The notes under the pieces were generated by a model. The model worked only from the letters and a program-made list of their open reading frames with translations, was not told the origin of the DNA and did no database searches. Position numbers and translations under genes: made by a program. A stretch of 64,000 bases of DNA, taken from NCBI RefSeq assembly GCF_053078305.1, contig NZ_CP166879.1; one strand, 5' to 3'. Shown one piece after another: positions 2,801 through 23,180 of the stretch. How positions within the stretch are numbered: position 1 is the stretch's first letter; each line of letters starts with the position of its first letter.

Positions 2801-2895
2801 GAGAAAGAGCGGCGCGTATGCACCGCTAAGGAGTTTATTTTCATGACTTATGCAGCTTTCAATCTTAGCACCGCCGTAGCTGGTGGACAAGGCTA

Positions 2896-3123: not shown

Positions 3124-3180
3124 GATACTGCCCTGTAAAGCAATGCGCCGGAGTACCTCACGCCACGGCGCTGATAGTGA

Positions 3181-4678: not shown

Positions 4679-4679
4679 T

Positions 4680-4913: not shown

Positions 4914-4918
4914 AAATA

Positions 4919-6624: not shown

Positions 6625-6830
6625 AAAGTGGGCATTAAAAGTGGGAAAGGTGGGCGATTTAACGTAATTTTAACAAAATCACCCACTTTCCCACGTGTAT
6701 ATATCCCAAAAAGTGGGCACTAAAAAAATACCTATGAAACAAGATGATATAAATCCCAAACTTCCCACGTTGGACGAAGTGGGAAAACGTAAAAAGTGGG
6801 CGAAAAAAGTGGGTAGAGGTGGGCGAATGA
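6625..6830. repeat. iteron array, putative replication origin of the satellite
   Basis: About ten copies of AAGTGGG(C/A) / GGTGGGCGA in both orientations directly downstream of the rep gene. Confidence 0.7.
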
Positions 6831-7078
6831 CTCAAAAACACAGAGACAGAACAGAGCCAAAATATAAAGCGTTAGACATGACAGAGCACGCTTTAAAGGT
6901 GGCAATCAGGGTAATAGACCGCCACACGCGGGAAGGATACGCGAAGGAACATCCCGACCTGATAAGCGCATTCATGACCACAGCGGCGGCAAACTTTGCC
7001 ACGCTGACAGAACGGGAGATAGCCGAAGCGGAACAGGTAACAACCATCAACGTTAAAACCGGAGAGGTGGAATCATGA
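6827..7078 (+). CDS. hypothetical protein
   Basis: 83 aa from ATG at 6827 (upstream part of track ORF lies in the iterons). Confidence 0.45.
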   Translation: MTQKHRDRTEPKYKALDMTEHALKVAIRVIDRHTREGYAKEHPDLISAFMTTAAANFATLTEREIAEAEQVTTINVKTGEVES

Positions 7079-7485
7079 CAGCACAGATAGCCGCTTACGG
7101 GCGGCTGGTGGACGACCCGCAGGTAAAACAAACCAGCAAGGGCACACCGATGACGCTGGCGCGTATGGCGGTATCTCTGCCATGCAGCCAGGCACAGGAC
7201 GGGCAGGCTACGTTATGGCTATCAGTGATGGCATTTGGTAAGCAGGCCGACTTCCTGGCTAAACATCAAAAAGGCGATGTTGCCAGCGTATCCGGCACGA
7301 TGCAGGTAAGCCAGTGGACCAGACAGAACGGGGAAACGCGGCAGGGTTATCAGGTTATTGCAGACAGTGTAATCAGTGCCCGTGCTGCCCGTCCTGGCGG
7401 GAGCAGACGTACAACCACAGGCACACAGGGTAATCAGCCACCAGCGGGAGGCGATGACCCTTACGGTGACGGTATTCCGTTCTGA
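7075..7485 (+). CDS. ssb: single-stranded DNA-binding protein
   Basis: OB-fold pattern and acidic C-terminal tail DDPYGDGIPF typical of SSB. Confidence 0.75.
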   Translation: MTAQIAAYGRLVDDPQVKQTSKGTPMTLARMAVSLPCSQAQDGQATLWLSVMAFGKQADFLAKHQKGDVASVSGTMQVSQWTRQNGETRQGYQVIADSVISARAARPGGSRRTTTGTQGNQPPAGGDDPYGDGIPF

Positions 7486-7495
7486 GGGGGTGACG

Positions 7496-7768
7496 ATGGT
7501 ACATGACCGCATAGCGGAGGAACTCGAGGCAAAAGGCTTTTACCGGAGGGCGGCGGCGCGATGGGGTGAAGTTATGCAGCTGGTGGAGACAGACAAGGAA
7601 CGGCATCAGGTTACGATGCGACGGCTGGAATGTTCCAGGAAGGCACAGAGGCCACCGGAGCCGCCGGATAACTTCGGAGACCTGAAAAAAGCAGTAGATC
7701 GCACTTATGCCGAAATGGGTATGGATGGTGTAAGCGATGAAATATGGCGTAATTACCCAGACAGCTAA
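7496..7768 (+). CDS. PerC-family transcriptional regulator
   Basis: 90 aa; IAEELEAKGFYRRAAARW motif resembles PerC family. Confidence 0.5.
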   Translation: MVHDRIAEELEAKGFYRRAAARWGEVMQLVETDKERHQVTMRRLECSRKAQRPPEPPDNFGDLKKAVDRTYAEMGMDGVSDEIWRNYPDS

Positions 7769-7774
7769 TCAACA

Positions 7775-7796
7775 GCCGGAGAAATCCGGCTTTTTT
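7775..7796 (+). terminator. rho-independent terminator (GCCGGAGAAATCCGGC + T-run)
   Basis: Perfect hairpin then TTTTTT; identical hairpin recurs at 10049-10071. Confidence 0.65.
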
Positions 7797-8007
7797 GTAC
7801 CCAAAAAAAGCCCGATAAGTACAGGAGGCATCTTATCGGGCTTTTGCATATGAGGTTTTTTTGGTGCACTGACACACATGATCGGGGTAATCATTTCATA
7901 ATTTGCAACACAACTCAACATCATTGCACAAAATGCAATCCTGATTATAATCAGAGCTGGATGAACATCCAGTTCTGATTTTTTAAGTCAAAGAGGAATT
8001 TCTTACT

Positions 8008-8214
8008 ATGGCTGAAGAGAAAAAAGGCGGTGTTTCGGTGTACATAAGCCCCGAAATCGTGGAGGTGCTCAAGCAGCGCCACAAAAAAAACTATGAGGCT
8101 GGCGTAGCGGCTGGACTGGATCCGCTGATGACGCCGGAGCCGTCGATAGGTTCACTTGTGCGCTCTTATTTACTTGCGGCGCTTGGGATGCATAAAAATT
8201 ATGGTGGTGAATAA
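8008..8214 (+). CDS. hypothetical protein
   Basis: 68 aa, AAGAGG RBS, first gene of capsid operon. Confidence 0.45.
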   Translation: MAEEKKGGVSVYISPEIVEVLKQRHKKNYEAGVAAGLDPLMTPEPSIGSLVRSYLLAALGMHKNYGGE

Positions 8215-9269
8215 TGACAGTAAAAGCAATGGCACTTACAACTAACCAGCTTTTCGCGTACCTGAATCGCGGGGATATTGCAGAATTTAAATTCAGTCCG
8301 CTGTTTACCACGCTGTTTTTCCCGAACGTGGCGACCTTCAACACCCAGAACATCATGCTGGACACCCTGGACATTGAAGAGGTTACGATGTCAGCGTTCT
8401 GTTCGCCTATGGTGGGTAGTCAGGTCCAGCGCGATAAAGGGTACGAAACCAGCACGATTAAACCAGGCTACATGAAACCCAAACACGAAATCGATCCAAC
8501 AAAAACCATCATGCGCATGGCTGGAGAAGATCCGGCACAGCTTAACGACCCTACCTACCGCCGTATGCGCCTGATTACTGGCAACATGCGCCGCCAGATA
8601 AACGCCATTAAAGCGCGCGTGGAATGGCTGGCGGTGAATGCGATAACGACCGGAAAAAACATCATTGAGGGCGAAGGCATAGAACGCTATGAAATCGACT
8701 GGAAAATACCGGAAAACTGCATCATAGAGCAGGCCAAGGGTAAAAAATGGTCCGAGCATGATAAAGATATTTACGATCCAATCTATGACATCGAACTATA
8801 CGCAGATCAGGCAGGTTGCCCCGCCAACGTCATGATTATGGGCGCTGAGGTATGGCGCACGTTACGCAGCTTTAAAAAATTCCGCGAACTGTACGATCTT
8901 TCCCGTGGTTCAGAATCCGCCGCAGAACTGGCCTGTAAAAACCTGGGTGAAGTAGTGAGCTTTAAAGGCTATCTGGGCGATATTGCCCTTATCGTCTATT
9001 CCGGCAAATACACTGACAGCGACGGTACCGAAAAATATTTCCTTGAGCCTGATTTGCTGGTCCTGGGTAACACCAACAATAAAGGGCTGGTGGCCTATGG
9101 TGCGATTATGGATCAGGAAGCGGTAAGAACGGGCGCAACGCAAAACATGTTCTACCCGAAAAACTGGATTGAAGACGGCGATCCGGCGATTGAGTACGTT
9201 CAGACGCACAGCGCACCGCAGCCGGTACCGGCAGATATTCGCAAATTTGTTACCGTCAAAATTGCTTAA
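8214..9269 (+). CDS. major capsid protein, lambda gpE-like paralog encoded by the satellite
   Basis: 351 aa; clear similarity to helper E at 14646-15674 (PGYVKPKHE, EDPAQLNDP, VVSFKGY, VLGNT motifs). Confidence 0.85.
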   Translation: MTVKAMALTTNQLFAYLNRGDIAEFKFSPLFTTLFFPNVATFNTQNIMLDTLDIEEVTMSAFCSPMVGSQVQRDKGYETSTIKPGYMKPKHEIDPTKTIMRMAGEDPAQLNDPTYRRMRLITGNMRRQINAIKARVEWLAVNAITTGKNIIEGEGIERYEIDWKIPENCIIEQAKGKKWSEHDKDIYDPIYDIELYADQAGCPANVMIMGAEVWRTLRSFKKFRELYDLSRGSESAAELACKNLGEVVSFKGYLGDIALIVYSGKYTDSDGTEKYFLEPDLLVLGNTNNKGLVAYGAIMDQEAVRTGATQNMFYPKNWIEDGDPAIEYVQTHSAPQPVPADIRKFVTVKIA

Positions 9270-9280
9270 CGGGGGATTCT

Positions 9281-9616
9281 ATGGACACTCCATACATTGA
9301 GTTATTTGCAGGCAGTCAGCAGGTATCCACGACGCTGGTACATTTTGCCGCTGATGCTGGCGTTATTCAGGAATTTACCCCGCTGATGCTGGCGGACAAT
9401 GGCGAGTTTAAGCCGTGGGATGGTCAGGAATCTGGCAAGGCTGTTTATCTGACCTCGTACCCCGTGGACACGTCAAAGCAGAAATCAGCACAGTGTTACA
9501 AGACGGGGATATTTAATATCGCCGCCGTAAACTGGCCTGAGAGCGCCGACACTGACGCGAAAAAATGCGCCGCCTTTGCGGGTTCTGGCGTATCCGTTCA
9601 GCCGCTGGCGCGATAA
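9281..9616 (+). CDS. head decoration protein, lambda gpD-like paralog
   Basis: 111 aa; TPLMLA...WDGQ...YKSG/TGIF...WPES...AFAG pattern shared with helper D at 14241-14588. Confidence 0.75.
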   Translation: MDTPYIELFAGSQQVSTTLVHFAADAGVIQEFTPLMLADNGEFKPWDGQESGKAVYLTSYPVDTSKQKSAQCYKTGIFNIAAVNWPESADTDAKKCAAFAGSGVSVQPLAR

Positions 9617-9628
9617 GCAGGGGAAACG

Positions 9629-10042
9629 ATGGCAACGAATGAAAGCATCATGGCGCTACCGCTGGCGAGTAAATTTAAAGCAGAAGCGCGGGCAATGGCT
9701 GACAGAGGTTTATCAACCTACGAGGCCGTATATCAACTCAACAAACTGGAAGAGCAGGACAAGCCGCGCGCTGATGCGATTATGGCGCTTCATGAACATA
9801 ACGACTATCAGCCGCTGTTACGTGCAATGGCAAACGTGCCATGTATTAGCGTCGATAATGCTCGTGAAATCCTGAACATGACCATAGAGCAGGAGCGCCC
9901 AAAGGTTGCGCCGGAGCTTACCGCAGCCTTTGAAAACTTTATGGACATGCACAGCCCGAAAGCCGTATCACCCGGCATGGCATACGACGGCAGAAACCAG
10001 GGCGATGAAGGCGACGTCGATCGCATACTGAAAACCATCTGA
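9629..10042 (+). CDS. scaffold protein, Nu3-like (scaffold domain only, no protease domain)
   Basis: 137 aa; C-terminus AAFENFMDMHSPKAV...DEGDVD parallels helper C/Nu3 C-terminus ALFEHFMANHSPAAV...ADGDAD. Confidence 0.65.
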   Translation: MATNESIMALPLASKFKAEARAMADRGLSTYEAVYQLNKLEEQDKPRADAIMALHEHNDYQPLLRAMANVPCISVDNAREILNMTIEQERPKVAPELTAAFENFMDMHSPKAVSPGMAYDGRNQGDEGDVDRILKTI

Positions 10043-10048
10043 CATAAG

Positions 10049-10071
10049 GCCGGAGAAATCCGGCTTTTTTT
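10049..10071 (+). terminator. rho-independent terminator after capsid operon
   Basis: GCCGGAGAAATCCGGC hairpin followed by TTTTTTT. Confidence 0.65.
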
Positions 10072-10130
10072 ACGGGTCCTTTCCGGCATATGGACCCGTT
10101 ACGGGGCGGCGACCTCGCGGTTTTTCGCTA
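10072..10130 (+). other. cos site 1 (cosN GGGCGGCGACCT at 10104-10115 with cosQ-like and cosB-like flanks), rightward orientation
   Basis: Exact lambda 12-nt cohesive-end sequence and lambda-like flanks ACGGGTCCTTTCCGG...CGCGGTTTTTCGCTATTTATGA. Confidence 0.8.
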
Positions 10131-10248
10131 TTTATGAGCTTTTTTCGGGTGCTGGTGGTGGTTTTGTTGTTCGCTCTATCTCTATGAATAAAAAGGGAAA
10201 GATAAAACCAATACACCAACCTGAAACATTACTTAAGTGGGGATATTG

Positions 10249-10791
10249 ATGAAATCGCACCTGATGAACAAAAAAAACATGGCGCAAAGCTGCCGTGTAA
10301 GTGCGACAGCGTTCGACAAGTGGGGAGTGACTCCCGTTGAACGTAAAGGACGCGAGGCTTTTTACGATGTTGCCAGCGTGATAGACAATCGGGTAAGCAA
10401 TGCAATTAACCAGGTTACAAACGACAAAGGCGAGATTGATGATGATGAACTCTTACGAGTCAGGATCAGATTACTGACCGCCCAGGCTGAGGCGCAGGAA
10501 CTTAAAAACGAGCGCGATCGCGGTGACGTAATTGATACTGAGTTTTGCCTGTACGCGCTTTCAAAGCTGGCGAGTCAGATTTCTTCAATCATGGACAGTT
10601 TGCCGCTTACCATGCAAAGGCGCTTCCCGCAGATTACTCCCGCTATGCTGGATGGGCTTAAAAGGGAAGTGGTTAAAGCCTGTAATGCCAGTGCCACAGT
10701 TGCCGACAACCTCCCGAAGATACTGGCTGATTACCTGATGGAAACTACCGGAGACGTACCGGAGAAGTTGCTACAGAAGAAAGGCGAGTAA
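10249..10791 (+). CDS. terminase small subunit, lambda Nu1-like
   Basis: LTAQAEAQELKNERDRGDVIDTEFCLYALSKLASQISSIMDSLPLTMQRRFP parallels remembered lambda Nu1; start uncertain (10237/10249/10264). Confidence 0.75.
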   Translation: MKSHLMNKKNMAQSCRVSATAFDKWGVTPVERKGREAFYDVASVIDNRVSNAINQVTNDKGEIDDDELLRVRIRLLTAQAEAQELKNERDRGDVIDTEFCLYALSKLASQISSIMDSLPLTMQRRFPQITPAMLDGLKREVVKACNASATVADNLPKILADYLMETTGDVPEKLLQKKGE

Positions 10792-10962
10792 CAGACGCGC
10801 AATTATTGAACAAAAGTAAGGCCCGACATGAAATCACCCAAAAATGCCTTTTTCATGCGTTTGTATGTCTGACCTTTTACGGTTTCGATATTATAAAAAA
10901 CAAATAGTTACGCTCGAGAGGTACCGACACGCATTTTTCAGGAAAATTTTCATAAACAGATA

Positions 10963-11015
10963 AAAACCGCGAGGTCGCCGCCCCGTAACGGGCCATAATT
11001 CCAGGAAGGACCCGA
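10963..11015 (-). other. cos site 2 (cosN reverse complement at 10972-10983), inverted relative to cos site 1
   Basis: AGGTCGCCGCCC plus lambda-like flanks on the minus strand. Confidence 0.75.
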
Positions 11016-11047
11016 CGACACCAGGCTATCAGAACGATGAGGGCACA

Positions 11048-11329
11048 ATGACAGAAGCCGAACTACTGGGATTAATCCGCTACGTTACCGGAATCAGCCA
11101 GCAGCATGACGAACAGGCCACGCAGCCGGACAGCGTGACCGCTGAAAATTATGCGCGTGTTGTTGCTGAGGTGATGCGCCGTGATGGTATCCAGCTTAAT
11201 GATGCAGATATGCGCGACATACGGATCCGCGTTCTTGAAATGCTGGCCTACCGTCGCCGCGTGCAGACGTACAGGGAAAAAGCAAAAATAACGTACCAGT
11301 GGAAGAAGCCGGAGCGATTACGGCGGTAA
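11048..11329 (+). CDS. hypothetical protein
   Basis: 93-aa ORF, last gene before the right junction. Confidence 0.4.
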   Translation: MTEAELLGLIRYVTGISQQHDEQATQPDSVTAENYARVVAEVMRRDGIQLNDADMRDIRIRVLEMLAYRRRVQTYREKAKITYQWKKPERLRR

Positions 11330-11834
11330 CTTGCTGATATTCCCGATAACGCAAAATTGCGCTCTGTCCTAACCCGTTGATATTTTCGGGAACAGCCAAC
11401 GGCTGAGGCCGGAACAACGATTATCTTTCAGATAGTCAGAGCTACGAAATTTTCGTAGTTTAATTACTCGCCAGTTTATCGTTAACTCGTTGATATTTTC
11501 GGTAACCTCAATTTGAGGAGATCGGAAACATAACCCTTCACATTCTGAATGGTTATAATGACCACTCAGACCATCAAGGCAACCATAACGAACATCGTTA
11601 CGGTTGGAGCTTTTACCCCACTGGGGGGAAGGTGCACATCTGGATCATCATTACCGTGATCAAGGGTATGTAAAACCCACCAGCCTGATTAACTGTTAAC
11701 CGGAAAAAAGCCAGGTAGCCAATCTCGATATGGGGATCCCCATATCGACATTAACGCCCCCTAGAACTGCGCATATCTGCATATAAAAACATCCACCAGC
11801 TTTATGACGGATGCCGCTCATCTGATAAATAATC

Positions 11835-11857
11835 GTGTATTGCAATGTGTATTGCGA
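11835..11857 (+). repeat. two direct copies of GTGTATTGCAA/GTGTATTGCGA near right end (arm-type sites)
   Basis: Same motif as the triplet at 228-280. Confidence 0.55.
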
Positions 11858-11929
11858 CTCCTTTAAACGATAGGTTTGAGCATTCGTAATGTACTGTTTT
11901 TAAATTTTATTTTTTCCTGTCTTTTCATA

Positions 11930-11937
11930 AAAGCCAT
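11930..11937. other. right junction core repeat AAAGCCAT (putative attR core)
   Basis: Identical to 91-98; portal frame resumes here. Confidence 0.6.
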
Positions 11938-12709
11938 GTATGCAGCGACGATTGAAAGTGAACTTGATACCGAAAAGGCCTTTGAATATATCGCCGGTGC
12001 GCCGCAGGGGCAGAAGGATAATCCGCTTATTAATATTCTGGATAAGTTCTCCACCTGGTATGACACGAATATCGTGACGCTGGGCGGTGTCAAAATTCCG
12101 CACCTTTTCCCCGGTGATGATCTGAAACTTCAGACCGCGCAGGATTCAGACAATGGATTTTCGGCGCTTGAACAGGCGCTGCTGCGGTATATCGCCGCCG
12201 GTCTTGGCGTTTCCTACGAACAGTTGTCCCGTGATTACTCGAAGGTCAGTTATTCAAGTGCCCGCGCCTCCGCCAATGAGTCGTGGCGCTATTTTATGGG
12301 ACGACGAAAATTTATTGCAGCCCGGCTGGCCACGCAGATGTTTTCCTGCTGGCTGGAAGAGGCACTTCTTCGGGGGATTATCCGTCCGCCACGGGCACGT
12401 TTTGATTTTTATCAGGCGCGTTCAGCCTGGTCGCGGGCAGAGTGGATTGGCGCAGGAAGAATGGCCATTGACGGGCTCAAGGAGGTCCAGGAATCAGTGA
12501 TGCGCATTGAGGCCGGACTGAGCACGTATGAGAAAGAGCTGGCGCTGATGGGTGAGGATTATCAGGACATTTTCCGCCAGCAGGTCAGGGAATCCGCAGA
12601 GCGGGAAAAAGCCGGACTCTCACGTCCGGTGTGGATAGCGCAGGCGTATCAGCAGCAGATAGCAGAGAGCCGCAGGCCGGAAGAGGAGACAACACCACGT
12701 GAGACGTAA
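11930..12709 (+). CDS. B: phage portal protein (lambda gpB-like), downstream part resuming after the insertion
   Basis: KAMYAATIESELD...YIAAGLGVSYEQLSR...MAIDGLKEVQE resembles remembered lambda portal C-terminal half. Confidence 0.8.
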   Translation, partial: KAMYAATIESELDTEKAFEYIAGAPQGQKDNPLINILDKFSTWYDTNIVTLGGVKIPHLFPGDDLKLQTAQDSDNGFSALEQALLRYIAAGLGVSYEQLSRDYSKVSYSSARASANESWRYFMGRRKFIAARLATQMFSCWLEEALLRGIIRPPRARFDFYQARSAWSRAEWIGAGRMAIDGLKEVQESVMRIEAGLSTYEKELALMGEDYQDIFRQQVRESAEREKAGLSRPVWIAQAYQQQIAESRRPEEETTPRET

Positions 12710-14204
12710 TCTTTCACACATTATTGCCGCAGCATTCAATGAACCGCTGCTTCTGGAGCCCGCCTATGCGCGGGTTTTCTTTTGCGCGCTCGGGCGCGAG
12801 ATGGGGGCAGCAAGTCTTTCGTTACCACAACAGCAGGTACAGCTTGATGCTCCCGGGATGCTGGCTGAAACGGACGAGTACATGGCCGGAGGTAAACGAC
12901 CGGCCCGTGTTTACCGGGTGGTGAACGGTATTGCGGTACTGCCGGTGACCGGCACGCTGGTGCACCGGCTGGGTGGTATGCGGCCATTTTCCGGAATGAC
13001 AGGCTATGACGGCATTGTTGCCTGTCTTCAGCAGGCAATGGCGGACACCTCTGTCCGGGGCGTACTGCTGGATATTGACAGTCCGGGCGGGCAGGCCGCC
13101 GGTGCGTTTGACTGCGCTGACATGATTTACCGCCTCCGGCAGCAGAAGCCGGTCTGGGCACTGTGTAATGACACGGCCTGTTCTGCGGCCATGCTGCTGG
13201 CGTCGGCCTGCTCCCGACGGCTGGTTACCCAGACATCCCGTATCGGCTCCATTGGCGTGATGATGGGCCATGTCAGCTATGCCGGTCATCTGGCGCAGGC
13301 CGGAGTGGATATCACGCTGATTTATGCCGGGGCGCATAAGGTGGATGGCAATCAGTTTGAAGCGTTGCCGTCAGAGGTTCGCCAGGACATGCAGCAGCGG
13401 ATTGATGCGGCGCGCCGGATGTTTGCCGAAAAAGTGGCGATGTATACGGGGCTGTCTGTGGAAGCTGTCACGGGGACAGAGGCTGCCGTTTTTGAAGGTC
13501 AGTCCGGTATTGAAGCCGGGCTGGCGGATGAATTAATCAATGCGTCGGATGCCATCAGTGTGATGGCTGCGGCGTTGAACACACATGATACAGGAGGCAC
13601 TATGCCGCAATTAACTGCAACGGAAGCCGCCGCGCAGGAGAACCAGCGAGTGATGGGGATCCTGACGTGTCAGGAAGCGAAAGGACGTGAACAGCTTGCC
13701 ACGATGCTGGCAGGACAACAGGGCATGAGCGTTGAACAGGCCCGGGCGATTCTGGCCGCGGCGGCACCACAGCAGCCGGTGGCATCCGCGCAGAGTGAAG
13801 CCGATCGCATTATGGCGTGTGAAGAAGCTAAAGGTCGTGAACAACTGGCGGCAACGCTGGCGGCGATGCCGGATATGACGGTGGAAAAAGCCCGCCCGAT
13901 CCTGGCGGCTTCACCGCAGGTGGATGCCGGCCCCTCACTCCGTGATCAGATTATGGCTCTGGATGAGGCAAAAGGGGCTGAGGCGCAGGCTGAACAGCTG
14001 GCTGCCTGCCCGGGAATGACAGTGGAGAGCGCCCGGGCTGTGCTGGCTGCGGGATCAGGTAAGGCAGAACCGGTTTCTGCATCAACAACCGCCCTGTTTG
14101 AACATTTCATGGCGAACCATTCACCGGCAGCCGTGCAGGGTGGCGTGTCACAGACGTCGGCAGACGGTGATGCGGACGTGAAAATGCTCATGGCCATGCC
14201 ATGA
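12699..14204 (+). CDS. C: prohead protease (S49/ClpP-like, lambda gpC) with nested in-frame scaffold (Nu3) region
   Basis: 501 aa; peptidase region then three ~40-aa scaffold-like repeats and a C-terminus similar to the satellite Nu3-like protein. Confidence 0.8.
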   Translation: MRRNLSHIIAAAFNEPLLLEPAYARVFFCALGREMGAASLSLPQQQVQLDAPGMLAETDEYMAGGKRPARVYRVVNGIAVLPVTGTLVHRLGGMRPFSGMTGYDGIVACLQQAMADTSVRGVLLDIDSPGGQAAGAFDCADMIYRLRQQKPVWALCNDTACSAAMLLASACSRRLVTQTSRIGSIGVMMGHVSYAGHLAQAGVDITLIYAGAHKVDGNQFEALPSEVRQDMQQRIDAARRMFAEKVAMYTGLSVEAVTGTEAAVFEGQSGIEAGLADELINASDAISVMAAALNTHDTGGTMPQLTATEAAAQENQRVMGILTCQEAKGREQLATMLAGQQGMSVEQARAILAAAAPQQPVASAQSEADRIMACEEAKGREQLAATLAAMPDMTVEKARPILAASPQVDAGPSLRDQIMALDEAKGAEAQAEQLAACPGMTVESARAVLAAGSGKAEPVSASTTALFEHFMANHSPAAVQGGVSQTSADGDADVKMLMAMP

Positions 14205-14240
14205 AGTCAGTGCTGACCATCAATATGAGGTTTTTACAAT

Positions 14241-14588
14241 ATGGTAACGAAAACCATCACTGAACAACGTGCGGAAGTACGTATTTTTGCCGGTAATGAT
14301 CCGGCTCATACCGCCACAGGCAGCAGCGGGATTTCTCAGGCAACACCGGCACTGACGCCCCTGATGCTGGATGAAGCCAGCGGGAAACTGGTGGTCTGGG
14401 ACGGACAGAAAGCCGGTAATGCGGCTGGCATACTGGTACTGCCGCTTGAAGGCACAGAGACGGTGCTGACGTATTACAAGTCGGGGACCTTTGCGACGGA
14501 GGCAATCCGCTGGCCTGAAAGTGTGGATGAACACAAAAAGGCCAACGCCTTTGTCGGCACAGCCCTGAGTCACGCGGCGCTGCCGTAA
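14241..14588 (+). CDS. D: head decoration protein gpD
   Basis: 115 aa; close to remembered lambda D (DPAHTATG, TPLMLD, YKSGTF, WPE). Confidence 0.85.
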   Translation: MVTKTITEQRAEVRIFAGNDPAHTATGSSGISQATPALTPLMLDEASGKLVVWDGQKAGNAAGILVLPLEGTETVLTYYKSGTFATEAIRWPESVDEHKKANAFVGTALSHAALP

Positions 14589-14645
14589 CACGTTATCAGG
14601 CCACCGCGTTGGCCTGACTGATTTCTGAATGAAAGGAACTGATTT

Positions 14646-15674
14646 ATGGGATTGTTTACGACCCGCCAGTTACTCGGTTATACCGAACAAAAAGTGAAAT
14701 TTCGTGCGCTGTTTCTGGAGCTGTTTTTCCGCCGTACGGTGAATTTCCACACCGAAGAGGTGATGCTGGATAAAATTACCGGAAAAACGCCGGTGGCAGC
14801 CTATGTCTCCCCGGTTGTTGAAGGAAAAGTGCTGCGTCATCGTGGTGGTGAAACCCGCGTGTTGCGTCCGGGCTACGTCAAGCCGAAACACGAATTTAAT
14901 TACCAGCAGGCGGTGGAGCGCCTTCCCGGTGAAGATCCGGCGCAACTGAACGACCCGGCCTACCGTCGTCTGCGTATCATCACTGATAACCTCAAACAGG
15001 AAGAGCATGCCATTGTCCAGGTGGAGGAAATGCAGGCGGTGAATGCCGTGCTGTATGGCAAATACACCATGGAAGGGGAGCAGTTTGATACTGTCGAGGT
15101 GGATTTCGGGCGCTCTGAAGGAAATAACATTGAGCAGGCTGACGGTAAAAAATGGTCTGAGCAGGACCGTGATACGTTTGATCCGACGCATGATATTGAC
15201 CTCTACTGCGATCAGGCCAGCGGTCTTGTGAATATCGCCATTATGGACGGTACGGTCTGGCGTCTGCTGAATGGCTTTAAGTTGTTCCGCGAAAAACTGG
15301 ATGCCCGTCGCGGCTCAAATTCACAACTCGAAACAGCAGTGAAAGACCTGGGGTCGGTGGTGTCCTTCAAGGGGTATTACGGCGATCTGGCCATTGTGGT
15401 GGCGAAAACGTCTTATGTGGCAGAGGACGGTACCGAAAAACGTTATCTGCCGGAGGGCACGCTGGTCCTGGGAAATACGTCAGCGGAGGGCATCCGTTGC
15501 TATGGTGCCATTCAGGATGCGCAGGCGTTGTCCGAAGGTGTGGTGGCCTCTTCCCGTTATCCGAAACACTGGATGACCGTGGGCGATCCGGCCCGTGAAT
15601 TCACCATGACGCAGTCCGCGCCGCTGATGGTGCTGCCGGATCCGGATGAGTTTGTGGTGGTACAGGTGAAATAA
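14646..15674 (+). CDS. E: major capsid protein gpE
   Basis: 342 aa; high similarity to remembered lambda E. Confidence 0.9.
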   Translation: MGLFTTRQLLGYTEQKVKFRALFLELFFRRTVNFHTEEVMLDKITGKTPVAAYVSPVVEGKVLRHRGGETRVLRPGYVKPKHEFNYQQAVERLPGEDPAQLNDPAYRRLRIITDNLKQEEHAIVQVEEMQAVNAVLYGKYTMEGEQFDTVEVDFGRSEGNNIEQADGKKWSEQDRDTFDPTHDIDLYCDQASGLVNIAIMDGTVWRLLNGFKLFREKLDARRGSNSQLETAVKDLGSVVSFKGYYGDLAIVVAKTSYVAEDGTEKRYLPEGTLVLGNTSAEGIRCYGAIQDAQALSEGVVASSRYPKHWMTVGDPAREFTMTQSAPLMVLPDPDEFVVVQVK

Positions 15675-15725
15675 TCCGGGAGCGGGGGCGAAATGCCCCC
15701 GTGTCTTTTTTCACAGGGGGCTGAG

Positions 15726-16109
15726 ATGGCAACAAAAGAAGAAAATCTGAATCGTCTTCGTCAACTGGCTGGTCTGCTGGGGCGCGAGGCGGATATGTCG
15801 GGGAGTGCTGCGGATATTGCTCTGCGTGTGTCTGAGTGGGAAGAGGAGCTTGCAGCTTCCCGGGAGGGCATTATGCACTCTGATGAGAGCGGGTCTGATC
15901 AAAATGACACAGACGATGGTGAGCAGTTGAACAACACGGATTCTCCGGATGATGTTAAAGCCGTCCGGGTACGGAAGTGCCTGCAAGTGATGGGGTATTG
16001 CCCGGAGACAGGTCGTCCCGTTGAGCTGGCGTTACGGGGTATGCGTGTTCTGGTGCCATCATCACTGGCAACGGCCATGATACAGCACGGAACGGCTGAA
16101 TATGCGTGA
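15726..16109 (+). CDS. FI: DNA packaging protein FI
   Basis: Position and architecture match lambda FI; ATG at 15726 with AGGGGG RBS. Confidence 0.7.
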   Translation: MATKEENLNRLRQLAGLLGREADMSGSAADIALRVSEWEEELAASREGIMHSDESGSDQNDTDDGEQLNNTDSPDDVKAVRVRKCLQVMGYCPETGRPVELALRGMRVLVPSSLATAMIQHGTAEYA

Positions 16110-16455
16110 TTTTCAGAATGCCTTTGATGCTGCCCTCGCCGGGGTGGACAGTACGATCGTTGAAGTGATGGGGATCCGTGCGCAGTTCACCTCCGGTGCA
16201 CAGCGTGGCGGCGAAGTTCAGGGGGTTTTTGACGATCCGGAGTCGCTGGGTTTTGCCGGTGGCGGGGTCCGTATTGAAGGAAGCAGCCCGTCATTATTTG
16301 TGCGGACGGATACGGTGCGTGCTGTGCGGCGTGGTGACACGCTGACCATTAACGGCGAGATGTTCTGGGTGGATCGTGTTTCTCCGGATGACGGGGGCAG
16401 CTGTTATCTCTGGCTCAACCGTGGGCAACCACCCGCTGTTAACCGGCGACGATAA
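16102..16455 (+). CDS. FII: head-tail joining protein FII
   Basis: 117 aa; near-identical motifs to remembered lambda FII (GDTLTI...FWVDRVSPDDGGSC). Confidence 0.9.
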   Translation: MRDFQNAFDAALAGVDSTIVEVMGIRAQFTSGAQRGGEVQGVFDDPESLGFAGGGVRIEGSSPSLFVRTDTVRAVRRGDTLTINGEMFWVDRVSPDDGGSCYLWLNRGQPPAVNRRR

Positions 16456-16470
16456 ACGCAGGGTGAAATT

Positions 16471-16953
16471 ATGGCGATAAAAGGGCTTGATCAGGCGATT
16501 GATAATCTGAGCCGGGTTCGTAAAAACGCCATTCCTGCTGCTTCAGCAATGGCCATTAACCGCGTGGCCACAACGGCAATAAATCAGTCTGCGTCACAGG
16601 TTGCCCGTGAGACAAAGGTACGCCGGAAACTGGTAAAGGAAAGGGCCAGGCTGAAAAGGGCCACGGTAAAAAATCCGCAGGCCAGAATCAAAGTTAACCG
16701 GGGGGATTTGCCTGTAATCAGGCTGGGTAATGCGCGGGTTGTCCTGTCCCGACGCAGGCGACGTAAAAAGGGGCAGCGTTCATCCCTGAAAGGTGGCGGC
16801 AGTGTGCTTGTGGTGGGTAACCGTCGCATTCCCGGCGCGTTTATTCAGCAACTGAAAAATGGGCGGTGGCATGTCATGCAGCGTGTGGCCGGGAAAAACC
16901 GTTACCCCATTGATGTGGTAAAAATCCCGATGGCGGTGCCTGTAACCAGGTAA
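16471..16953 (+). pseudogene. Z: tail protein Z, upstream part truncated by Mu-like insertion (ends with 3 foreign codons)
   Basis: Matches remembered lambda Z to ...IPMAVP, then VTR-stop from inserted DNA; remainder found at 56278-56391. Confidence 0.8.
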
Positions 16954-17245
16954 ATCATTTGATACCGACAAGGGTTTTAGTGAAAGGAGGTGAAATCACC
17001 TGTAAGATACTGAAATAAAACAGGTGATCGATGATTCTGGAGGTTGTTTAGTTTTGATACTGATTAAATAAAATCCGGTATAAAATTAAGGTATCGGCAA
17101 CAAATTTGATACTGCACATACTGCTTATGGACGTTTTTAAAAGTACTTAAAATGTCTTTTATGCTAAAAAGTTTATATCAATATCGATCTGGTCACAAAT
17201 CAAGTTGAAAGTGCTCGCTAAGTGCATAGCCTGGGCTTCATGGGG

Positions 17246-17764
17246 TTACGCTTTGGCTTCTTTATGGGTTAAATTGAAATGATGCTCCTTGGTTTCATCT
17301 CCCTCGAAAATCTCTCTAACCTTTTGATCTGATAAATTATTAAGGCTCAATGCTGCCAGGCGTCGAATACCTGTTAAAGCGATCAACTCTTGATTCTCTT
17401 GATTGCAGAATTCCAGCAATTTTTCTACCCCTTTCCTTCTCAAGGTGTAAATAACTAATTCTTGCTCTTCTTGGCTCAAAGTGTCGATGAGTTCGAGCAA
17501 CTCGCTATTGCCACCGTTCTTTTGAGGGGGCTGGTGTTTTATTTCTGCACTACCTGTAATGATGGAAACAACATGTGCAGGTAAGTCGCTTAAACGGTAG
17601 GCAAATGCTCTCCCTCTGATACCAGGTGTAGTTACCGAACGTTTTTCCCATCCTTCATTTTTTGCTCGTTTATGAAGCCCAGCCAGAGATGAAGGAAGAC
17701 CTCCAACCCCCAACAAGTCACTGGCAAGGATCCATTCTTGGTCAAGGATCATATCAAACTCCAT
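17246..17764 (-). CDS. c: Mu-type repressor c
   Basis: 172 aa leftward gene at left end; N-terminal DNA-binding domain shared with transposase N-terminus (LPSSLAGLHK). Confidence 0.7.
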   Translation of the reverse strand: MEFDMILDQEWILASDLLGVGGLPSSLAGLHKRAKNEGWEKRSVTTPGIRGRAFAYRLSDLPAHVVSIITGSAEIKHQPPQKNGGNSELLELIDTLSQEEQELVIYTLRRKGVEKLLEFCNQENQELIALTGIRRLAALSLNNLSDQKVREIFEGDETKEHHFNLTHKEAKA

Positions 17765-17981: not shown

Positions 17982-18227
17982 GTGAGTCTTATTGAAGATT
18001 GGTCTTCCGCCGATATAAAGGCAGCCTTAGAAAAACGCGATACCAATTTGTCACGTTTATCAAGGGAAAATAATTTGCAGCCTAGGACTTTGGGTAATGC
18101 TTTGCGAGTTCCCTACCCTAAAGGTGAAAAGATAATTGCTAGGGCTATAGGTGTAGAGCCACAGGTTATTTGGCCTACTAGATATGAACGACGTGCGCGG
18201 AGGAAATATGTGGGTTGCAATGACTGA
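17982..18227 (+). CDS. ner: Ner-like DNA-binding protein
   Basis: 81 aa; GTG start with AGGGGG RBS; resembles Ner/Nlp family. Confidence 0.7.
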   Translation: MSLIEDWSSADIKAALEKRDTNLSRLSRENNLQPRTLGNALRVPYPKGEKIIARAIGVEPQVIWPTRYERRARRKYVGCND

Positions 18228-20292
18228 ATTGATTTCATTCAGTGACCTACCTAGTTCTTTGGCAGGTCTGCACAAAAAAGCAAAGAGGGAAGCGTGGAAA
18301 ACGCGGCTAAAACCAGGGGTAAAAGGGAAAGTTTTAGAGTGTGAAATAGGAGCTTTGCCTTTAACTGTTCAGCAGGCAGTACGCGAACGCCATGCCCTGC
18401 AACTGATGACGCAAAAAGCCGATGAATCACCGGCTCCGGTGGTGACAAAGGCCAGACGCTCACCTGCCGTGGTTGATGCGGTGGAGGCATATCGCGGATC
18501 ACCCCAACTGATGGTCGAACGCCTCAATGCCCTGACTGAAAATCAGCGCCAGGTGGCTGATGCACGAATCGCGATCGTCAGCGAAGTTCTGAAAGTCGCG
18601 CAACAACCTGGTTTCAGCTGTGCGAAGGCTATCCGGTTTATCGTTGACAACCTGGCACGTTCGCAGTTGGACGAGCGCATTGTGGCAATGGTTGAGACGG
18701 CGAACGCCAAAAAGGGAAACAGCCGCGCGTTAAGTGAAATCACGCTGAAACGCTGGATTGCGGCCTTTAACAAGGCGCAGAACGCCGCTGAACGCCTGCT
18801 TTTACTGGCACCGGGTAAGCGCCAGGAAATAAAAGCCGAAGATATTAACTGGCTGCCCGAATTTCTGGCGCAGTATCGCCAGTCAAACGGCCGACCAATG
18901 ACCGAGGCTTACGAGGATTTTGTCGCTGAATGGCAGCACCGGCACGCCGATGAGCCTTATATGCTCGATATCATGCCGTCTTATGACACCATTCGCCGCG
19001 CAATGAAGAAACTGCCGGAAGTGGTGAAACAAAAAGGCCGGGTGACCGGCAGTGAATACCGCCAGCTTGAGGGATTCACGCGCCGCGACTGGTCAAAAAT
19101 GCCGGTGAATTATGTCTGGATTGGTGACGGTCACGGCATGAAGCTGAAATGCGCACACCCGGTTCACGGTCGGCCATTTGCACCGGAAGTGACCTTTGTT
19201 ATCGACGGTGGCACGCGCTTTGTGGTGGGCTGGAGCCTTGACCTGGCTGAAAATGTTTTCGCCGTAGCCGGTGCCATACAGCACGGCATTCGCCATCACG
19301 GCAAACCGTTTCTGTATTACTCGGATAACGGCTCCGGGGAAACCGCCGACATCCTGGATAAGGAGGTTGTGGGGATACTGCCGCGACTGGGGATTAATCA
19401 CCCGACCGGGATTGCCGGTAATCCGCAGGGACGAGGCATTATCGAACGGCTTAACCGCACATTACCGATGCGCATAGCCCGTAAATACCGCACCTATTTC
19501 GGGAAAGGTGCAGATCGCGAGACGTTACGCAAAACCAACCGCGATTTACGCTCGGCATTTACTGCCCTGCAACAGGGCAAACGGCTGAACGCCCGGCAGC
19601 AGTCAGCGATGCGTGATTTACCGTCCTGGTCTGAACTGATTGATGCCATTCGTGACGGTGTTGAGTGGTACAACAACCGGCCGCACGATGAATTACCGGT
19701 GAAGCCGAACGGCAAGCATTACAGCCCGGCGGAGTTCAGAAAAAAACGCCTGGCGGAAGAGGACACGGAAATTGAATGGCTGTCCGATGTTGAGCTGCGG
19801 GATATGTTCCGGCCGATGGTGGAACGCCCTGTAAGACGCTGTGAAATACGCTGGCTGAATAATATTTACTACGCGCCCGAGCTGCGTGACGAGCATGGTC
19901 GTAAGGTGCTTATCAGCTATGACATTCATGATGCCGAACGAATTACCGTACGTCGCCTGGATGGCAGCGTGATTTGCGAGGCGGTATGGGACGGTAATAA
20001 ACGCGAAGCCTTCCCGGTTAGCGCGGAATACTACAAACAGCAGCAACGCCTTAAAGGCATGCGTAAACGCGCAGAGGAAAAAATCCGTGATGCCGAGGAT
20101 GAGGTTGTCAACGTGCTGGAGCACAAGCCGCAGGAGCCCTGGCTGGAAAACATATACCGCCCTGTGGGTAATACGGTGACCGTTCAGCAACCGGTCGCTG
20201 ACGATGAACCTGATGAAGAATACGAGCGTAATTTCCAGCGGGGATTGCAGTTGCTGGAAGCGAAATTAAAAGAAAATGACCCGCTGGCCTGA
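18208..20292 (+). CDS. A: Mu-type DDE transposase A
   Basis: ~694 aa; position after ner, repressor-like N-terminal domain, large catalytic core. Confidence 0.8.
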   Translation: MWVAMTELISFSDLPSSLAGLHKKAKREAWKTRLKPGVKGKVLECEIGALPLTVQQAVRERHALQLMTQKADESPAPVVTKARRSPAVVDAVEAYRGSPQLMVERLNALTENQRQVADARIAIVSEVLKVAQQPGFSCAKAIRFIVDNLARSQLDERIVAMVETANAKKGNSRALSEITLKRWIAAFNKAQNAAERLLLLAPGKRQEIKAEDINWLPEFLAQYRQSNGRPMTEAYEDFVAEWQHRHADEPYMLDIMPSYDTIRRAMKKLPEVVKQKGRVTGSEYRQLEGFTRRDWSKMPVNYVWIGDGHGMKLKCAHPVHGRPFAPEVTFVIDGGTRFVVGWSLDLAENVFAVAGAIQHGIRHHGKPFLYYSDNGSGETADILDKEVVGILPRLGINHPTGIAGNPQGRGIIERLNRTLPMRIARKYRTYFGKGADRETLRKTNRDLRSAFTALQQGKRLNARQQSAMRDLPSWSELIDAIRDGVEWYNNRPHDELPVKPNGKHYSPAEFRKKRLAEEDTEIEWLSDVELRDMFRPMVERPVRRCEIRWLNNIYYAPELRDEHGRKVLISYDIHDAERITVRRLDGSVICEAVWDGNKREAFPVSAEYYKQQQRLKGMRKRAEEKIRDAEDEVVNVLEHKPQEPWLENIYRPVGNTVTVQQPVADDEPDEEYERNFQRGLQLLEAKLKENDPLA

Positions 20293-20363: not shown

Positions 20364-21296
20364 ATGACTGATATTAACGATGTAATCAAGACCATTGATG
20401 AACTTATTGATGGCGGCGTACTGACGCAGTATGCCATCGCCAGAGAGGCGGGAATTTCCGACGGCACATTATCGGCTTTCCGTAAGGGAAAATATAAAGG
20501 CGATAACGCTGCTGTGGCTGCTTCCCTGCGTTCCTGGTATGAGAACTGGAATAAACAAAGCGCACTGCCGGAACCGCCGCAGTTTGTGGAAACGCAGACA
20601 GTCCAGGAGCTGCGCACACTGTTTCAGGCGGTTCGTCTGATGGGCTGTATTAACGTTATTGTGGGCGTACCGGGTGTGGGTAAAACGGCCACTGCCCGTA
20701 ATTACTGCCAGGAGCAACCAAACACCTGGATGATCACCCTGTCACCCGCGCACTCCAGCGTCACGGAGTGTCTGCTGGAGCTGGCCGATGCGCTGGGGAT
20801 TGATTACACCCGCGCGAACAAAGGGGCATTATCCCGCGCCATCCGCCGTCGCCTGATGGGAACGCGTGGACTGGTGATTGTGGATGAGGCGGATCATCTT
20901 GGTATTGACGGTCTGGAGCAACTCCGGGCAATTCAGGACGCCACGGGGATCGGGATGGTGCTTATTGGTAACCCGCGCGGATTGTTTAAAGGTGGACGCC
21001 GCGCCTTTGATGATTTATCGCGCCTGTTCAGCCGTCTTGCCCGTACAAAACAACTTCGCAAGGCCAAAAAGGCGGATGTGCTGGCCATTGCCAGTGCGTG
21101 GGGGATCAGTGGTGAGGCCGAGCTGGCCGTCATGCAGGCTATCGCTGAAAAGCCGGGAGCGTTACGCGTTCTGACACATACGCTTAACCAGGCGTGGCTC
21201 ACCGCCAGCGGTGAAGGCGCGGCGCTGACAGAAAAACATATTAATGCGGCCTTTAAAGAGGTTTATACCAACCCTGAATTACTCTCACAGGTGTGA
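20364..21296 (+). CDS. B: transposition ATPase B (AAA+)
   Basis: 310 aa; Walker A GVPGVGKT, Walker B VIVDEADHL. Confidence 0.8.
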   Translation: MTDINDVIKTIDELIDGGVLTQYAIAREAGISDGTLSAFRKGKYKGDNAAVAASLRSWYENWNKQSALPEPPQFVETQTVQELRTLFQAVRLMGCINVIVGVPGVGKTATARNYCQEQPNTWMITLSPAHSSVTECLLELADALGIDYTRANKGALSRAIRRRLMGTRGLVIVDEADHLGIDGLEQLRAIQDATGIGMVLIGNPRGLFKGGRRAFDDLSRLFSRLARTKQLRKAKKADVLAIASAWGISGEAELAVMQAIAEKPGALRVLTHTLNQAWLTASGEGAALTEKHINAAFKEVYTNPELLSQV

Positions 21297-21787: not shown

Positions 21788-21864
21788 GGTGAAAAAAAAA
21801 TCTCATTGCATGGGCGTGGTCGAGTGGTCTTATTGAGTTTGGTTACGTCCTGCCGGAAGGTGCA

Positions 21865-22071
21865 TTGCCGATAGTTGCCGGAAAGCCTGCCACGGTACGG
21901 CATGTGATTGAGGTTATGGCGCGTCATGGACGTGATGAACAGGAGCAGTTACTGGTTCCGGGGATACCGGAAGCGGTGACGGAGGAAGAAGCCTTTAATG
22001 CCATGATTCGGTTCTGCCGTGAGGTCAGACGCCGGGTCAGTTATCCAAACAGAACGAGGACCAGAGGATGA
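21865..22071 (+). CDS. hypothetical protein
   Basis: 68-aa ORF. Confidence 0.35.
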   Translation: MPIVAGKPATVRHVIEVMARHGRDEQEQLLVPGIPEAVTEEEAFNAMIRFCREVRRRVSYPNRTRTRG

Positions 22072-22340
22072 GTAAAGTCGTACGCATTATTTTCGAATAC
22101 AAGGAGCACGTTATCCATAAAAACGCGGATGGAACAGTGCGCATGGGGATAAGTCTGGACATACGTTCAACCGGGATAAAGCAGAAAGGTGATGGACCTG
22201 CCATGATTTTTGGGGTGGTTATGCTCGCGGAAAGCAGAGACTTTGCTGAACTTGTGGCAATGAAAGCCAGTGCGCTCATGAAAGATATGAGCATGCGTTC
22301 CGGGGTTATTAAAGGTAATGAATTTAATCAGCAGGGGTAA
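22068..22340 (+). CDS. hypothetical protein, paralog pair member 1
   Basis: 90 aa; MSKVVRIIFEYK similar to next gene MSKVRVIFEFK. Confidence 0.45.
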   Translation: MSKVVRIIFEYKEHVIHKNADGTVRMGISLDIRSTGIKQKGDGPAMIFGVVMLAESRDFAELVAMKASALMKDMSMRSGVIKGNEFNQQG

Positions 22341-22344
22341 TTCC

Positions 22345-22638
22345 ATGAGCAAAGTACGCGTTATTTTTGAATTTAAGCATGTTTCGCATGACGAAAAACC
22401 GGCAGGCAATGACTGTGTTGAAGTGCATGAAAAGATTGGTGTGGATGTAAAAACAGAACGTGATACGAATAACAGGCCGACGTCACTCTGTGACGTTTAT
22501 GTAAGTATTCTCCAGTATCACAGTCCTGAAATTATTCAGTTTCTCTCAGCGGAATTTCAGGCATCTGTACAGGCTTTTGGGGCGGATGCCATCATTAAAC
22601 GCCACCGCGTGCATAAAGCATCAGGCACACTGCAATAA
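22345..22638 (+). CDS. hypothetical protein, paralog pair member 2
   Basis: ATG at 22345 with GGGG RBS; similar N-terminus to previous gene. Confidence 0.45.
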   Translation: MSKVRVIFEFKHVSHDEKPAGNDCVEVHEKIGVDVKTERDTNNRPTSLCDVYVSILQYHSPEIIQFLSAEFQASVQAFGADAIIKRHRVHKASGTLQ

Positions 22639-22649: not shown

Positions 22650-23180
22650 ATGGCAAAACGCGTTACAAAATTAAAGGCCGCAGCAGAGGCGGCACCGCAG
22701 ACCCGTGAAGAGGTCAGCCGCGATATCCGCACCCTGGGCGATATTCAGCGAGAGGCGCTGCGCCTGGAAACAGCGATGAATGATGAAGTGGCAGAAATCA
22801 CCGCCCGTTATACGCCGCAGATTGAAAACCTTAAAAAAGAAATCAAAGTGCTTTTTAAGGGGATTCAGGACTGGTGCAAAACCAACCGTGATGAGCTGAC
22901 GAACGGCGGCAAAACCAAAACTGCCAATCTGACCACCGGAACAGTGTCATGGCGGCTGGGAAATCCATCATGCAGCGTCAGCCGTGATGTGGAAGGTGTG
23001 ATTGAAATGCTGCGCCGTATGGGGCTTGAGCGATTCATCCGCACGAAAGAGGAAGTGAACAAGGAAGCGGTCCTGGCGGAGCCGGATGCAGTGAAAGGCA
23101 TTGCCGGTATTAAGGTGAATAAAGGCGCTGAAAGTTTTTATGTCGAGCCTTTTGAACAGGACGCCGGACTGAATAAATAA
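22650..23180 (+). CDS. gam: host-nuclease inhibitor Gam (Mu-type)
   Basis: 176 aa; DIQREALRLETAMNDEVAEIT...ANLTTGTVSWR...RFIRTKEEVNKEA matches remembered Mu Gam. Confidence 0.8.
   Translation: MAKRVTKLKAAAEAAPQTREEVSRDIRTLGDIQREALRLETAMNDEVAEITARYTPQIENLKKEIKVLFKGIQDWCKTNRDELTNGGKTKTANLTTGTVSWRLGNPSCSVSRDVEGVIEMLRRMGLERFIRTKEEVNKEAVLAEPDAVKGIAGIKVNKGAESFYVEPFEQDAGLNK

What the first reader, a model, noticed from the sequence alone, without database searches (positions are those of the whole stretch)
22068..22638. Tandem paralogous small genes in the Mu-like early region
Two adjacent ~90-aa ORFs share an N-terminal motif (MSKVVRIIFEYK / MSKVRVIFEFK) and then diverge, suggesting a duplicated, diversifying early gene of the kind often involved in host takeover or anti-defence.
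Basis: seen in the sequence. Interest (0 to 1): 0.3.

Follow-up and report, generated by a model that had tools for sequence, protein, structure and literature searches.

The report
Diverged duplicate genes in Mu-like prophage
Two small neighbouring early genes of a Mu-like prophage in E. coli are real and are probably very old, heavily diverged copies of one gene of unknown function that sits alone next to the gam gene in related phages; this is ordinary phage accessory-gene evolution, and nothing tested here points to a function.

Summary
ORF1 (22068-22340, 90 aa) and ORF2 (22345-22638, 97 aa) lie 4 nt apart, just upstream of gam, in the early operon of a Mu-like prophage. They share 12 of 17 N-terminal residues (BLASTP E 1e-3) and nothing else detectable pairwise.

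Profiles extend the match. ORF1 family against an enlarged ORF2 family gives hhalign probability 88-93% over about 75 columns. The ORF2-family HMM scores ORF1 at 18 bits. With the N-terminal motif removed, the same register still beats 200/200 column shuffles, but only 154/160 block shuffles.

Fifteen related loci in Salmonella, Citrobacter and unnamed sources carry one ORF2-type gene in this slot. One E. coli prophage has ORF1's leader joined directly to ORF2. A tandem duplication in the E. coli lineage, with ORF1 the fast-diverging copy, is therefore the best reading.

Both genes are under purifying selection (dN/dS 0.29 and 0.37). They vary more than their neighbours, and their alleles assort independently.

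ORF2 models confidently as a long beta-hairpin plus two helices. It has no informative fold or family match. Function is unknown, and the anti-defence idea is untested. Interest is low to moderate.

The parts
22068..22340 (+). ORF1, 90 aa (WP_000049430.1 type; PHROG phrog_4107, unknown function). The more diverged copy, found only in E. coli-type Mu-like prophages.
   Evidence: E 2.1e-61; dN/dS 0.29. The AF2 model is weak (pLDDT 58) but predicts a beta-hairpin at 3-18/24-38 followed by a helix at 57-73.
22345..22638 (+). ORF2, 97 aa (WP_000049305.1 type; PHROG phrog_2230, unknown function). It belongs to the family that is present as a single gene upstream of gam or DUF3164 in the related loci examined (named sources: Salmonella, Citrobacter).
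   Evidence: E 1.7e-39; dN/dS 0.37. AF2 pLDDT 83: hairpin 4-21/24-39 plus helices 48-58 and 60-77.
22080..22103 (+). 5' copy of the 24-nt direct repeat, which encodes the shared N-terminal strand (VRIIFEYK).
   Evidence: family D1, 83% identity, spacing 274 nt
22354..22377 (+). 3' copy of the 24-nt direct repeat (VRVIFEFK).
21789..22071 (+). Upstream early gene (93-aa WP_000739863.1 family, phrog_1518). Its stop overlaps the ORF1 start (ATGA). In this window its 5' end is frameshifted by an A9 tract (21792-21800), against A8 in 22 of 24 relatives.
   Evidence: The same ATGA junction links this gene to the single-copy homologue in L043, L045 and L049.
22650..23180 (+). gam (host-nuclease inhibitor Gam, PF07352), the constant downstream neighbour of ORF2.

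Best explanation
ORF1 and ORF2 are two expressed, co-transcribed genes of the long early (Pe) operon of a Mu-like prophage. They are strongly diverged tandem paralogues of one small gene of about 97 codons. In related Mu-like prophages that gene stands alone, between the kil/'up' genes and gam (or DUF3164).

The duplication happened in the E. coli 'MSKV' lineage. ORF2 kept the family sequence and the junction to gam. ORF1 kept the upstream junction (ATGA overlap) and diverged much faster. What remains recognisable is the first beta-strand, and more weakly the rest of a beta-hairpin plus helix scaffold.

The protein is a small, soluble, non-enzymatic alpha/beta module: a long hairpin with two helices packed on one face.

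Inferred, not shown: it works as a binding protein, probably pairing through the hairpin edge, and modulates a host or phage factor early in the lytic cycle. The two copies would then give two specificities. Both genes are dispensable accessory genes, since natural prophages exist with ORF1 absent or with the two fused.
For: Shown:
- Real genes under purifying selection, annotated in RefSeq, and always adjacent in the same order in 40 viral contigs. About 222 complete E. coli genomes carry most of the two-gene stretch.
- No + strand promoter-like or terminator-like sites and no Rfam hit in the region, consistent with one operon.
- Homology evidence: BLASTP N-terminus E 1e-3; hhalign ORF1 family against enlarged ORF2 family E 3e-7 to 3e-6, probability 88-93%, 74-75 aligned columns, colinear; HMM of the ORF2 family scores ORF1 at 18.2 bits; ORF1 against ORF2b allele 23% over 86 aa, E 1.5e-4, and against P0065 30% over 56 aa.
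- With the N-terminal motif trimmed, the same register is recovered with score 20.3. Column shuffles give 10.3 +/- 2.0, and 0 of 200 reach the observed score.
- Single-copy state in 15 'MSNK' lineage loci.
- E. coli CI5 has ORF1's leader joined directly to an ORF2b-type gene.
- The upstream junction of ORF1 is homologous to that of the single-copy gene.
- Predicted secondary structure agrees on the N-terminal hairpin and a later helix.
- Accessory status: CI5 lacks ORF1, and L052 carries an in-frame ORF1::ORF2 fusion.
Against: - Beyond about 35 residues the similarity is weak. Pairwise tests are not significant without the N-terminus.
- The conservative block-shuffle control reached the trimmed score in 6 of 160 trials.
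- The ORF1 model is of low confidence (pLDDT 58). It predicts a strand at 45-53 where ORF2 has a helix.
- CI5 could be a secondary deletion between the 5' repeats rather than an ancestral state.
- ORF1 could have come from another phage rather than from an in-situ duplication.
- ORF1 and ORF2 alleles assort independently, which argues against a tightly co-evolving heterodimer.
Confidence: 0.62

Rival explanations
1. Same family, but not an in-situ duplication. ORF1 would be a xenologue brought in by recombination from a more distant Mu-like phage and inserted between the upstream gene and ORF2, using the conserved 5' sequence as the crossover point.
For: - ORF1 is more distant from ORF2 (about 18-23% identity) than ORF2 is from the Salmonella/Citrobacter genes (25-30%).
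- The middle of ORF1 (SLDIRSTGIK..GP) resembles the distant single-copy members (SVRVRSQGLS..GP) more than it resembles ORF2.
- The early region is visibly mosaic: alleles of ORF1, ORF2 and the upstream gene assort independently.
Against: - No free-standing ORF1-type gene was found anywhere. All 41 + 73 database hits and 40 viral loci are E. coli-type and paired with ORF2.
- The N-terminus of ORF1 (MSKVVRIIFEYK) is closest to the local ORF2 (MSKVRVIFEFK), not to the MSNKAQVIFTFE type.
Confidence: 0.2
2. The genes are unrelated. Only the first 12 codons or so are shared, either because a short 5' segment was copied by gene conversion or illegitimate recombination, or because of a common constraint on translation initiation.
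For: - Pairwise similarity is confined to 17 residues.
- PHROGs places the two in separate families.
- The block-shuffle control is only marginal, 6 of 160.
Against: - The profile alignment runs colinearly over 74-75 columns.
- The trimmed profiles still align in the same register and beat all 200 column shuffles.
- ORF1 gives near full-length BLASTP hits to the ORF2b allele.
- Both are predicted to start with the same long beta-hairpin.
- The motif is the most conserved part of the whole family, at the protein level and with different codons, in Salmonella and Citrobacter.
Confidence: 0.13
3. One or both ORFs are non-coding chance reading frames.
For: None beyond their small size and lack of annotation.
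Against: - dN/dS is 0.29 and 0.37.
- Lengths are conserved across dozens of alleles.
- Ribosome-binding motifs precede both starts.
- ORF2 gives a confident AF2 model.
- PHROG families match at E 1e-39 to 1e-61.
Confidence: 0.01

Closest known systems
PHROG families phrog_4107 (ORF1) and phrog_2230 (ORF2), 'unknown function'
   Same: Full-length, highly significant matches (E 2.1e-61 and 1.7e-39). These are the families the two genes belong to.
   Different: PHROGs treats them as two unrelated families. Here they are linked by profile-profile comparison and by gene position. Neither family has any described function.
Phage Mu gene 7 (E6, Mu_7, 87 aa; phrog_10252), a semi-essential early-region gene of unknown function
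   Same: It lies in the same part of the early operon (between kil and gam), has a similar size, and starts MAKVIIEIKN. It gives a weak, nearly full-length hit to phrog_2230 (E 0.009) and a colinear but non-significant hhalign match to the combined family (P 0.009).
   Different: There is no significant similarity by BLASTP, HMM or hhalign. In Mu the gene is not adjacent to gam, and Mu has no tandem pair. Relationship unproven.
Tandem duplicated and diverged small accessory genes of phages (general phenomenon; established knowledge, not tested here)
   Same: Small, non-essential early genes that vary between otherwise near-identical prophages, show presence/absence and fusion variants, and exchange alleles by recombination.
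   Different: No target, toxicity or counter-defence activity is known for this pair, and no similarity to any described anti-defence or defence-associated family was found.

Membership tests
PHROG phrog_4107 (ORF1) | Full-length match to the family HMM | tested here: met
   E 2.1e-61, residues 1-90 on profile positions 1-90 of 90
PHROG phrog_2230 (ORF2) | Full-length match to the family HMM | tested here: met
   E 1.7e-39, residues 3-97 on profile positions 1-88 of 89
One superfamily containing ORF1 and ORF2 (proposed here) | Significant, colinear profile-profile similarity over most of the length | tested here: met
   hhalign probability 88-93%, E 3e-7 to 3e-6, 74-75 columns. The ORF2-family HMM scores ORF1 at 18.2 bits.
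One superfamily containing ORF1 and ORF2 (proposed here) | Similarity persists when the shared N-terminal motif is removed | tested here: inconclusive
   Score 20.3 in the same register. 0 of 200 column shuffles reach it, but 6 of 160 block shuffles do. Pairwise tests are not significant.
One superfamily containing ORF1 and ORF2 (proposed here) | Same three-dimensional fold | tested here: inconclusive
   ORF2 is modelled confidently (pLDDT 83: hairpin plus two helices). The ORF1 model is poor (pLDDT 58). It has the same hairpin and a C-terminal helix but a strand where ORF2 has its first helix. The two models were not superposed: the report returns only secondary structure and confidence, the scripting data folder held only FASTA files, and the ORF1 model is too poor for a meaningful comparison.
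Phage Mu gp7 / E6 family (phrog_10252) | Significant sequence or profile similarity to Mu gp7 | tested here: not met
   Neither ORF hits phrog_10252. hhalign and HMM against Mu gp7 are not significant. The only link is Mu gp7 against phrog_2230 at E 0.009.
Curated protein families and defence-system components (Pfam, NCBIfam, PADLOC, PDB sequences) | Match to any curated family model or solved structure | tested here: not met
   Only circumstantial: early-operon position next to gam, accessory distribution and elevated variability. A Gam-like protein in another phage was reported to have anti-defence activity (bioRxiv 10.1101/2024.04.14.589459), but that says nothing direct about these genes.

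The most novel reading that the evidence does not exclude
The ORF2-type gene next to the gam/DUF3164 slot is a previously unrecognised family of small counter-defence or host-modulating proteins of enterobacterial Mu-like phages. Under this reading, the duplicated and fast-evolving ORF1, together with the two ORF2 allele classes, are specificity variants selected by different host targets.
Probability: 0.15. Interest if true: 0.5.

Novelty: new member of a known kind. Interest (0 to 1): 0.22.

Why it matters
The functions of the semi-essential early region of Mu-type phages are still largely unknown (PMC3820752). This work shows that two 'hypothetical' PHROG families are one family. It also shows that the family has a fixed place next to gam/DUF3164 and was duplicated in one lineage. 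That gives a small, well-defined target of two genes with natural knock-out and fusion variants for testing what these early genes do. Otherwise the finding is an ordinary example of duplication and divergence among phage accessory genes. It is common in STEC genomes (about 4% of complete E. coli genomes) but has no demonstrated phenotype.

Tried and rejected
1. Mu gp7/E6 as the prototype. It looked promising by eye and from a weak PHROG hit. BLASTP, HMM and hhalign with a three-sequence gp7 alignment were all non-significant, so it is kept only as a lead.
3. Pfam, NCBIfam, PADLOC and PDB sequence searches found nothing.
4. The exhaustive HMM search of 1.8 billion representatives with the ORF2 profile found only 11 proteins, all of the same small family. 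The family is narrow.
5. tblastn of ORF1, ORF2 and P0070 against GenBank phages found only two Stx phages that carry an inserted Mu-like phage. In plasmids there were only two E. coli records.
6. A DNA-mimic or DNA-binding role based on charge was rejected. The pI ranges from 4.9 to 9.5 across the family, so charge is not conserved.
7. Internal promoters, terminators or RNA elements as an explanation for the repeat were rejected. None lies on the + strand and there is no Rfam hit.
8. Co-variation of ORF1 and ORF2 alleles, as a hint of a heterodimer, was not seen. Alleles assort independently.
9. The genome-contig scan with the full alignment failed because no stretch was conserved enough. With the subset alignment it returned only a Citrobacter braakii locus and a spurious short hit.

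Full report
**Setting.** The window carries a complete Mu-like prophage. Its repressor lies at 17246-17764 on the minus strand, followed by MuA at 18184-20292 and MuB at 20364-21296, and it ends with Mom at 55413-56150. The prophage sits inside a lambdoid prophage: integrase, Ash, helicase, capsid E and S49 protease genes lie to the left, and lambda-type tape measure and JAB/NlpC tail genes to the right. The same arrangement is annotated in two Stx-converting phages, whose 'inserted Mu-like phage' is 91-97% identical to this region.

The finding lies in the early operon. The gene order is MuB, a 75-aa gene (phrog_3375), a Kil-type gene (phrog_2679), a 93-aa gene (phrog_1518; called 'up' here), ORF1, ORF2, Gam (PF07352, E 1.5e-41), a 180-aa gene and a Gp11_C gene.

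**The observation.**
- ORF1 (22068-22340, 90 aa) and ORF2 (22345-22638, 97 aa) are 4 nt apart.
- BLASTP aligns only the N-termini, with 12/17 identical residues and E 0.001.
- At DNA level this is a 24-nt direct repeat, 83% identical and spaced 274 nt apart. It contains synonymous differences, so it is not a recent copy.
- Shuffle tests give z of about 4.3-4.9 for the whole proteins and no significant signal once the first 15-17 residues are removed.

**Are they real genes?** Yes.
- RefSeq annotates both as hypothetical proteins (WP_000049430.1 and WP_000049305.1).
- The two-gene stretch matches 231 records (230 of 5426 complete E. coli genomes). In 223 records the match covers at least 80% of it.
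- In 40 viral contigs the order ORF1-ORF2-gam and the spacing are invariant.
- Across these loci dN/dS is 0.29 for ORF1 and 0.37 for ORF2, against 0.09-0.10 for MuB and Gam. Mean dN is 0.07 and 0.13, against 0.010-0.030 for every other gene measured except the 75-aa gene after MuB, which has 0.080.
- The two genes are therefore constrained but clearly more variable than most of their neighbours.
- ORF2 has two allele classes only about 58% identical. ORF1 and ORF2 alleles assort independently (counts 16/13/5/2 in the two-by-two table).
- There are no promoter-like or terminator-like sites on the + strand and no Rfam match, so the genes belong to the long early transcript.

**Are they paralogues?**
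- The word-indexed searches found only E. coli proteins for each ORF.
- An exhaustive HMM search with the ORF2 profile found a handful of 93-98 aa relatives at 25-30% identity, starting MSNKAQVIFTFE. The sources that name them give Salmonella enterica, and a genome scan found one in Citrobacter braakii.
- With these added, hhalign of the ORF1 family against the ORF2 family gives probability 88-93%, E 3e-7 to 3e-6, colinear over 74-75 columns.
- An HMM of the ORF2 family scores ORF1 at 18.2 bits. Mu gp7, run as a control, scores 0.9 bits.
- ORF1 aligns to the second ORF2 allele at 23% identity over 86 residues (E 1.5e-4), and to P0065 at 30% over 56 residues.
- With the shared motif trimmed from both profiles, hhalign finds the same register with score 20.3. 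Column-shuffled profiles give 10.3 +/- 2.0 with a maximum of 17.3, so 0 of 200 reach the observed score. The reversed profile gives 8.3.
- A conservative block shuffle, which leaves local segments intact, reaches 20.3 in 6 of 160 trials.
- Homology of the N-terminal third or so is therefore solid. Homology of the rest is probable but not proven.

**Comparative anatomy.**
- Fifteen loci of the MSNK lineage have a single gene of this family (L043-L049, L056-L063). It sits directly after 'up' (ATGA overlap) or after Kil, and directly before Gam or, more often, a DUF3164 gene.
- In the window ORF1 holds exactly that upstream junction, and the DNA is alignable. ORF2 holds the downstream junction to gam.
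- E. coli CI5 has ORF1's leader sequence joined directly to an ORF2b-type gene, with no ORF1. This is either the ancestral single-copy state or a one-unit deletion between the 5' repeats.
- One genome carries an in-frame ORF1(1-49)::ORF2(80-97) fusion at an 'FG' microhomology.
- The most divergent ORF1 found (P0080, 87 aa) is also followed by ORF2 and gam.
- No ORF1-type gene was found on its own.
- The simplest history is a tandem duplication in the E. coli lineage with asymmetric divergence. Acquisition of ORF1 from another phage cannot be excluded.

**Structure and function.**
- AlphaFold2 models ORF2 with confidence (pLDDT 83, pTM 0.67): a long beta-hairpin at 4-21/24-39 followed by helices at 48-58 and 60-77.
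- The ORF1 model is poor (pLDDT 58). It shows the same hairpin (3-18/24-38) and a helix at 57-73, but a strand at 45-53.
- There is no Pfam, NCBIfam, PADLOC or PDB sequence match.
- The proteins are hydrophilic and have no long hydrophobic stretch, so they are most likely soluble and cytoplasmic. Their pI varies from 4.9 to 9.5 across the family, which argues against a conserved DNA-mimic or DNA-binding surface.
- The most likely role is inference only: a small binding module acting on a host or phage factor early in lytic growth. It is dispensable and variable, as the literature describes for the largely uncharacterised semi-essential region of Mu (PMC3820752).
- A link to phage Mu gene 7 (E6) was examined and not supported.

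**Verdict.**
- The paralogy reading is supported at profile and synteny level, with confidence about 0.8 for common ancestry of some kind and about 0.6 for in-situ duplication with full-length homology.
- 'Diversifying' holds only in the sense of elevated variability and allele shuffling.
- The anti-defence idea remains untested.
- This is an ordinary case of duplication and divergence of a phage accessory gene. Its modest value is that it unites two PHROG 'unknown' families and points to a compact experimental target.

Noticed in passing
window 21789-21801: The 93-aa early gene upstream of ORF1 (WP_000739863.1 family, phrog_1518) is frameshifted at its fourth codon in this window. A homopolymer of 9 A replaces the 8 A found in 22 of 24 related loci. 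Only L042, an indel-rich contig, shares A9. This could be a sequencing error, a real inactivation or slippage-prone phase variation.
   Followed up: partly
window 299-17000 and 56300-64000: The Mu-like prophage (about 17.2-56.2 kb, repressor to Mom) is nested inside a lambdoid prophage. Integrase, Ash, AAA_25 helicase, two capsid-E genes and an S49 protease lie to the left. A lambda-type tape measure and a JAB/NlpC tail gene lie to the right. It therefore appears to split the lambdoid phage between its head and tail genes, as annotated in Stx phages LC727881 and LC727895.
   Followed up: partly
L053 (E. coli CI5, NZ_CP011018.1) 2380-2800: A closely related Mu-like prophage has the leader of ORF1 joined directly to an ORF2b-type gene and lacks both ORF1 and the upstream 93-aa gene. 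This is a natural single-copy variant, either ancestral or a one-unit deletion between the 5' repeats.
   Followed up: yes
L052 3001-3204 (protein P0036): An in-frame fusion of ORF1 residues 1-49 to ORF2 residues 80-97, joined at a shared 'FG' dipeptide, lies directly upstream of gam. It is a natural deletion that leaves a 67-aa chimera.
   Followed up: partly
L012-type loci (e.g. L012 4923-5270); proteins P0001 and P0013: In prophages where the upstream 93-aa gene is mostly deleted, ORF1 has a GTG start. An in-frame 26-codon extension runs from an ATG that overlaps the kil stop, giving a possible 116-aa form of ORF1. The same extension is in frame with ORF2 in CI5.
   Followed up: no
L005, L013, L019, L022, L023, L033, L038, L040 (ORF2 position): ORF2 exists in two allele classes only about 58% identical in protein sequence. 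They differ mainly after residue 10 and in the C-terminal third, and they combine freely with the ORF1 allele classes. The recombination breakpoints appear to lie near the conserved 5' motif.
   Followed up: partly
L043, L044, L049, L056-L061, L063 (downstream of the single-copy gene): In the single-copy (MSNK-type) relatives a 212-aa DUF3164 protein occupies the position that Gam holds in the window. L045-L048 and L062 have Gam there. The two look like alternative cassettes in the same slot.
   Followed up: no
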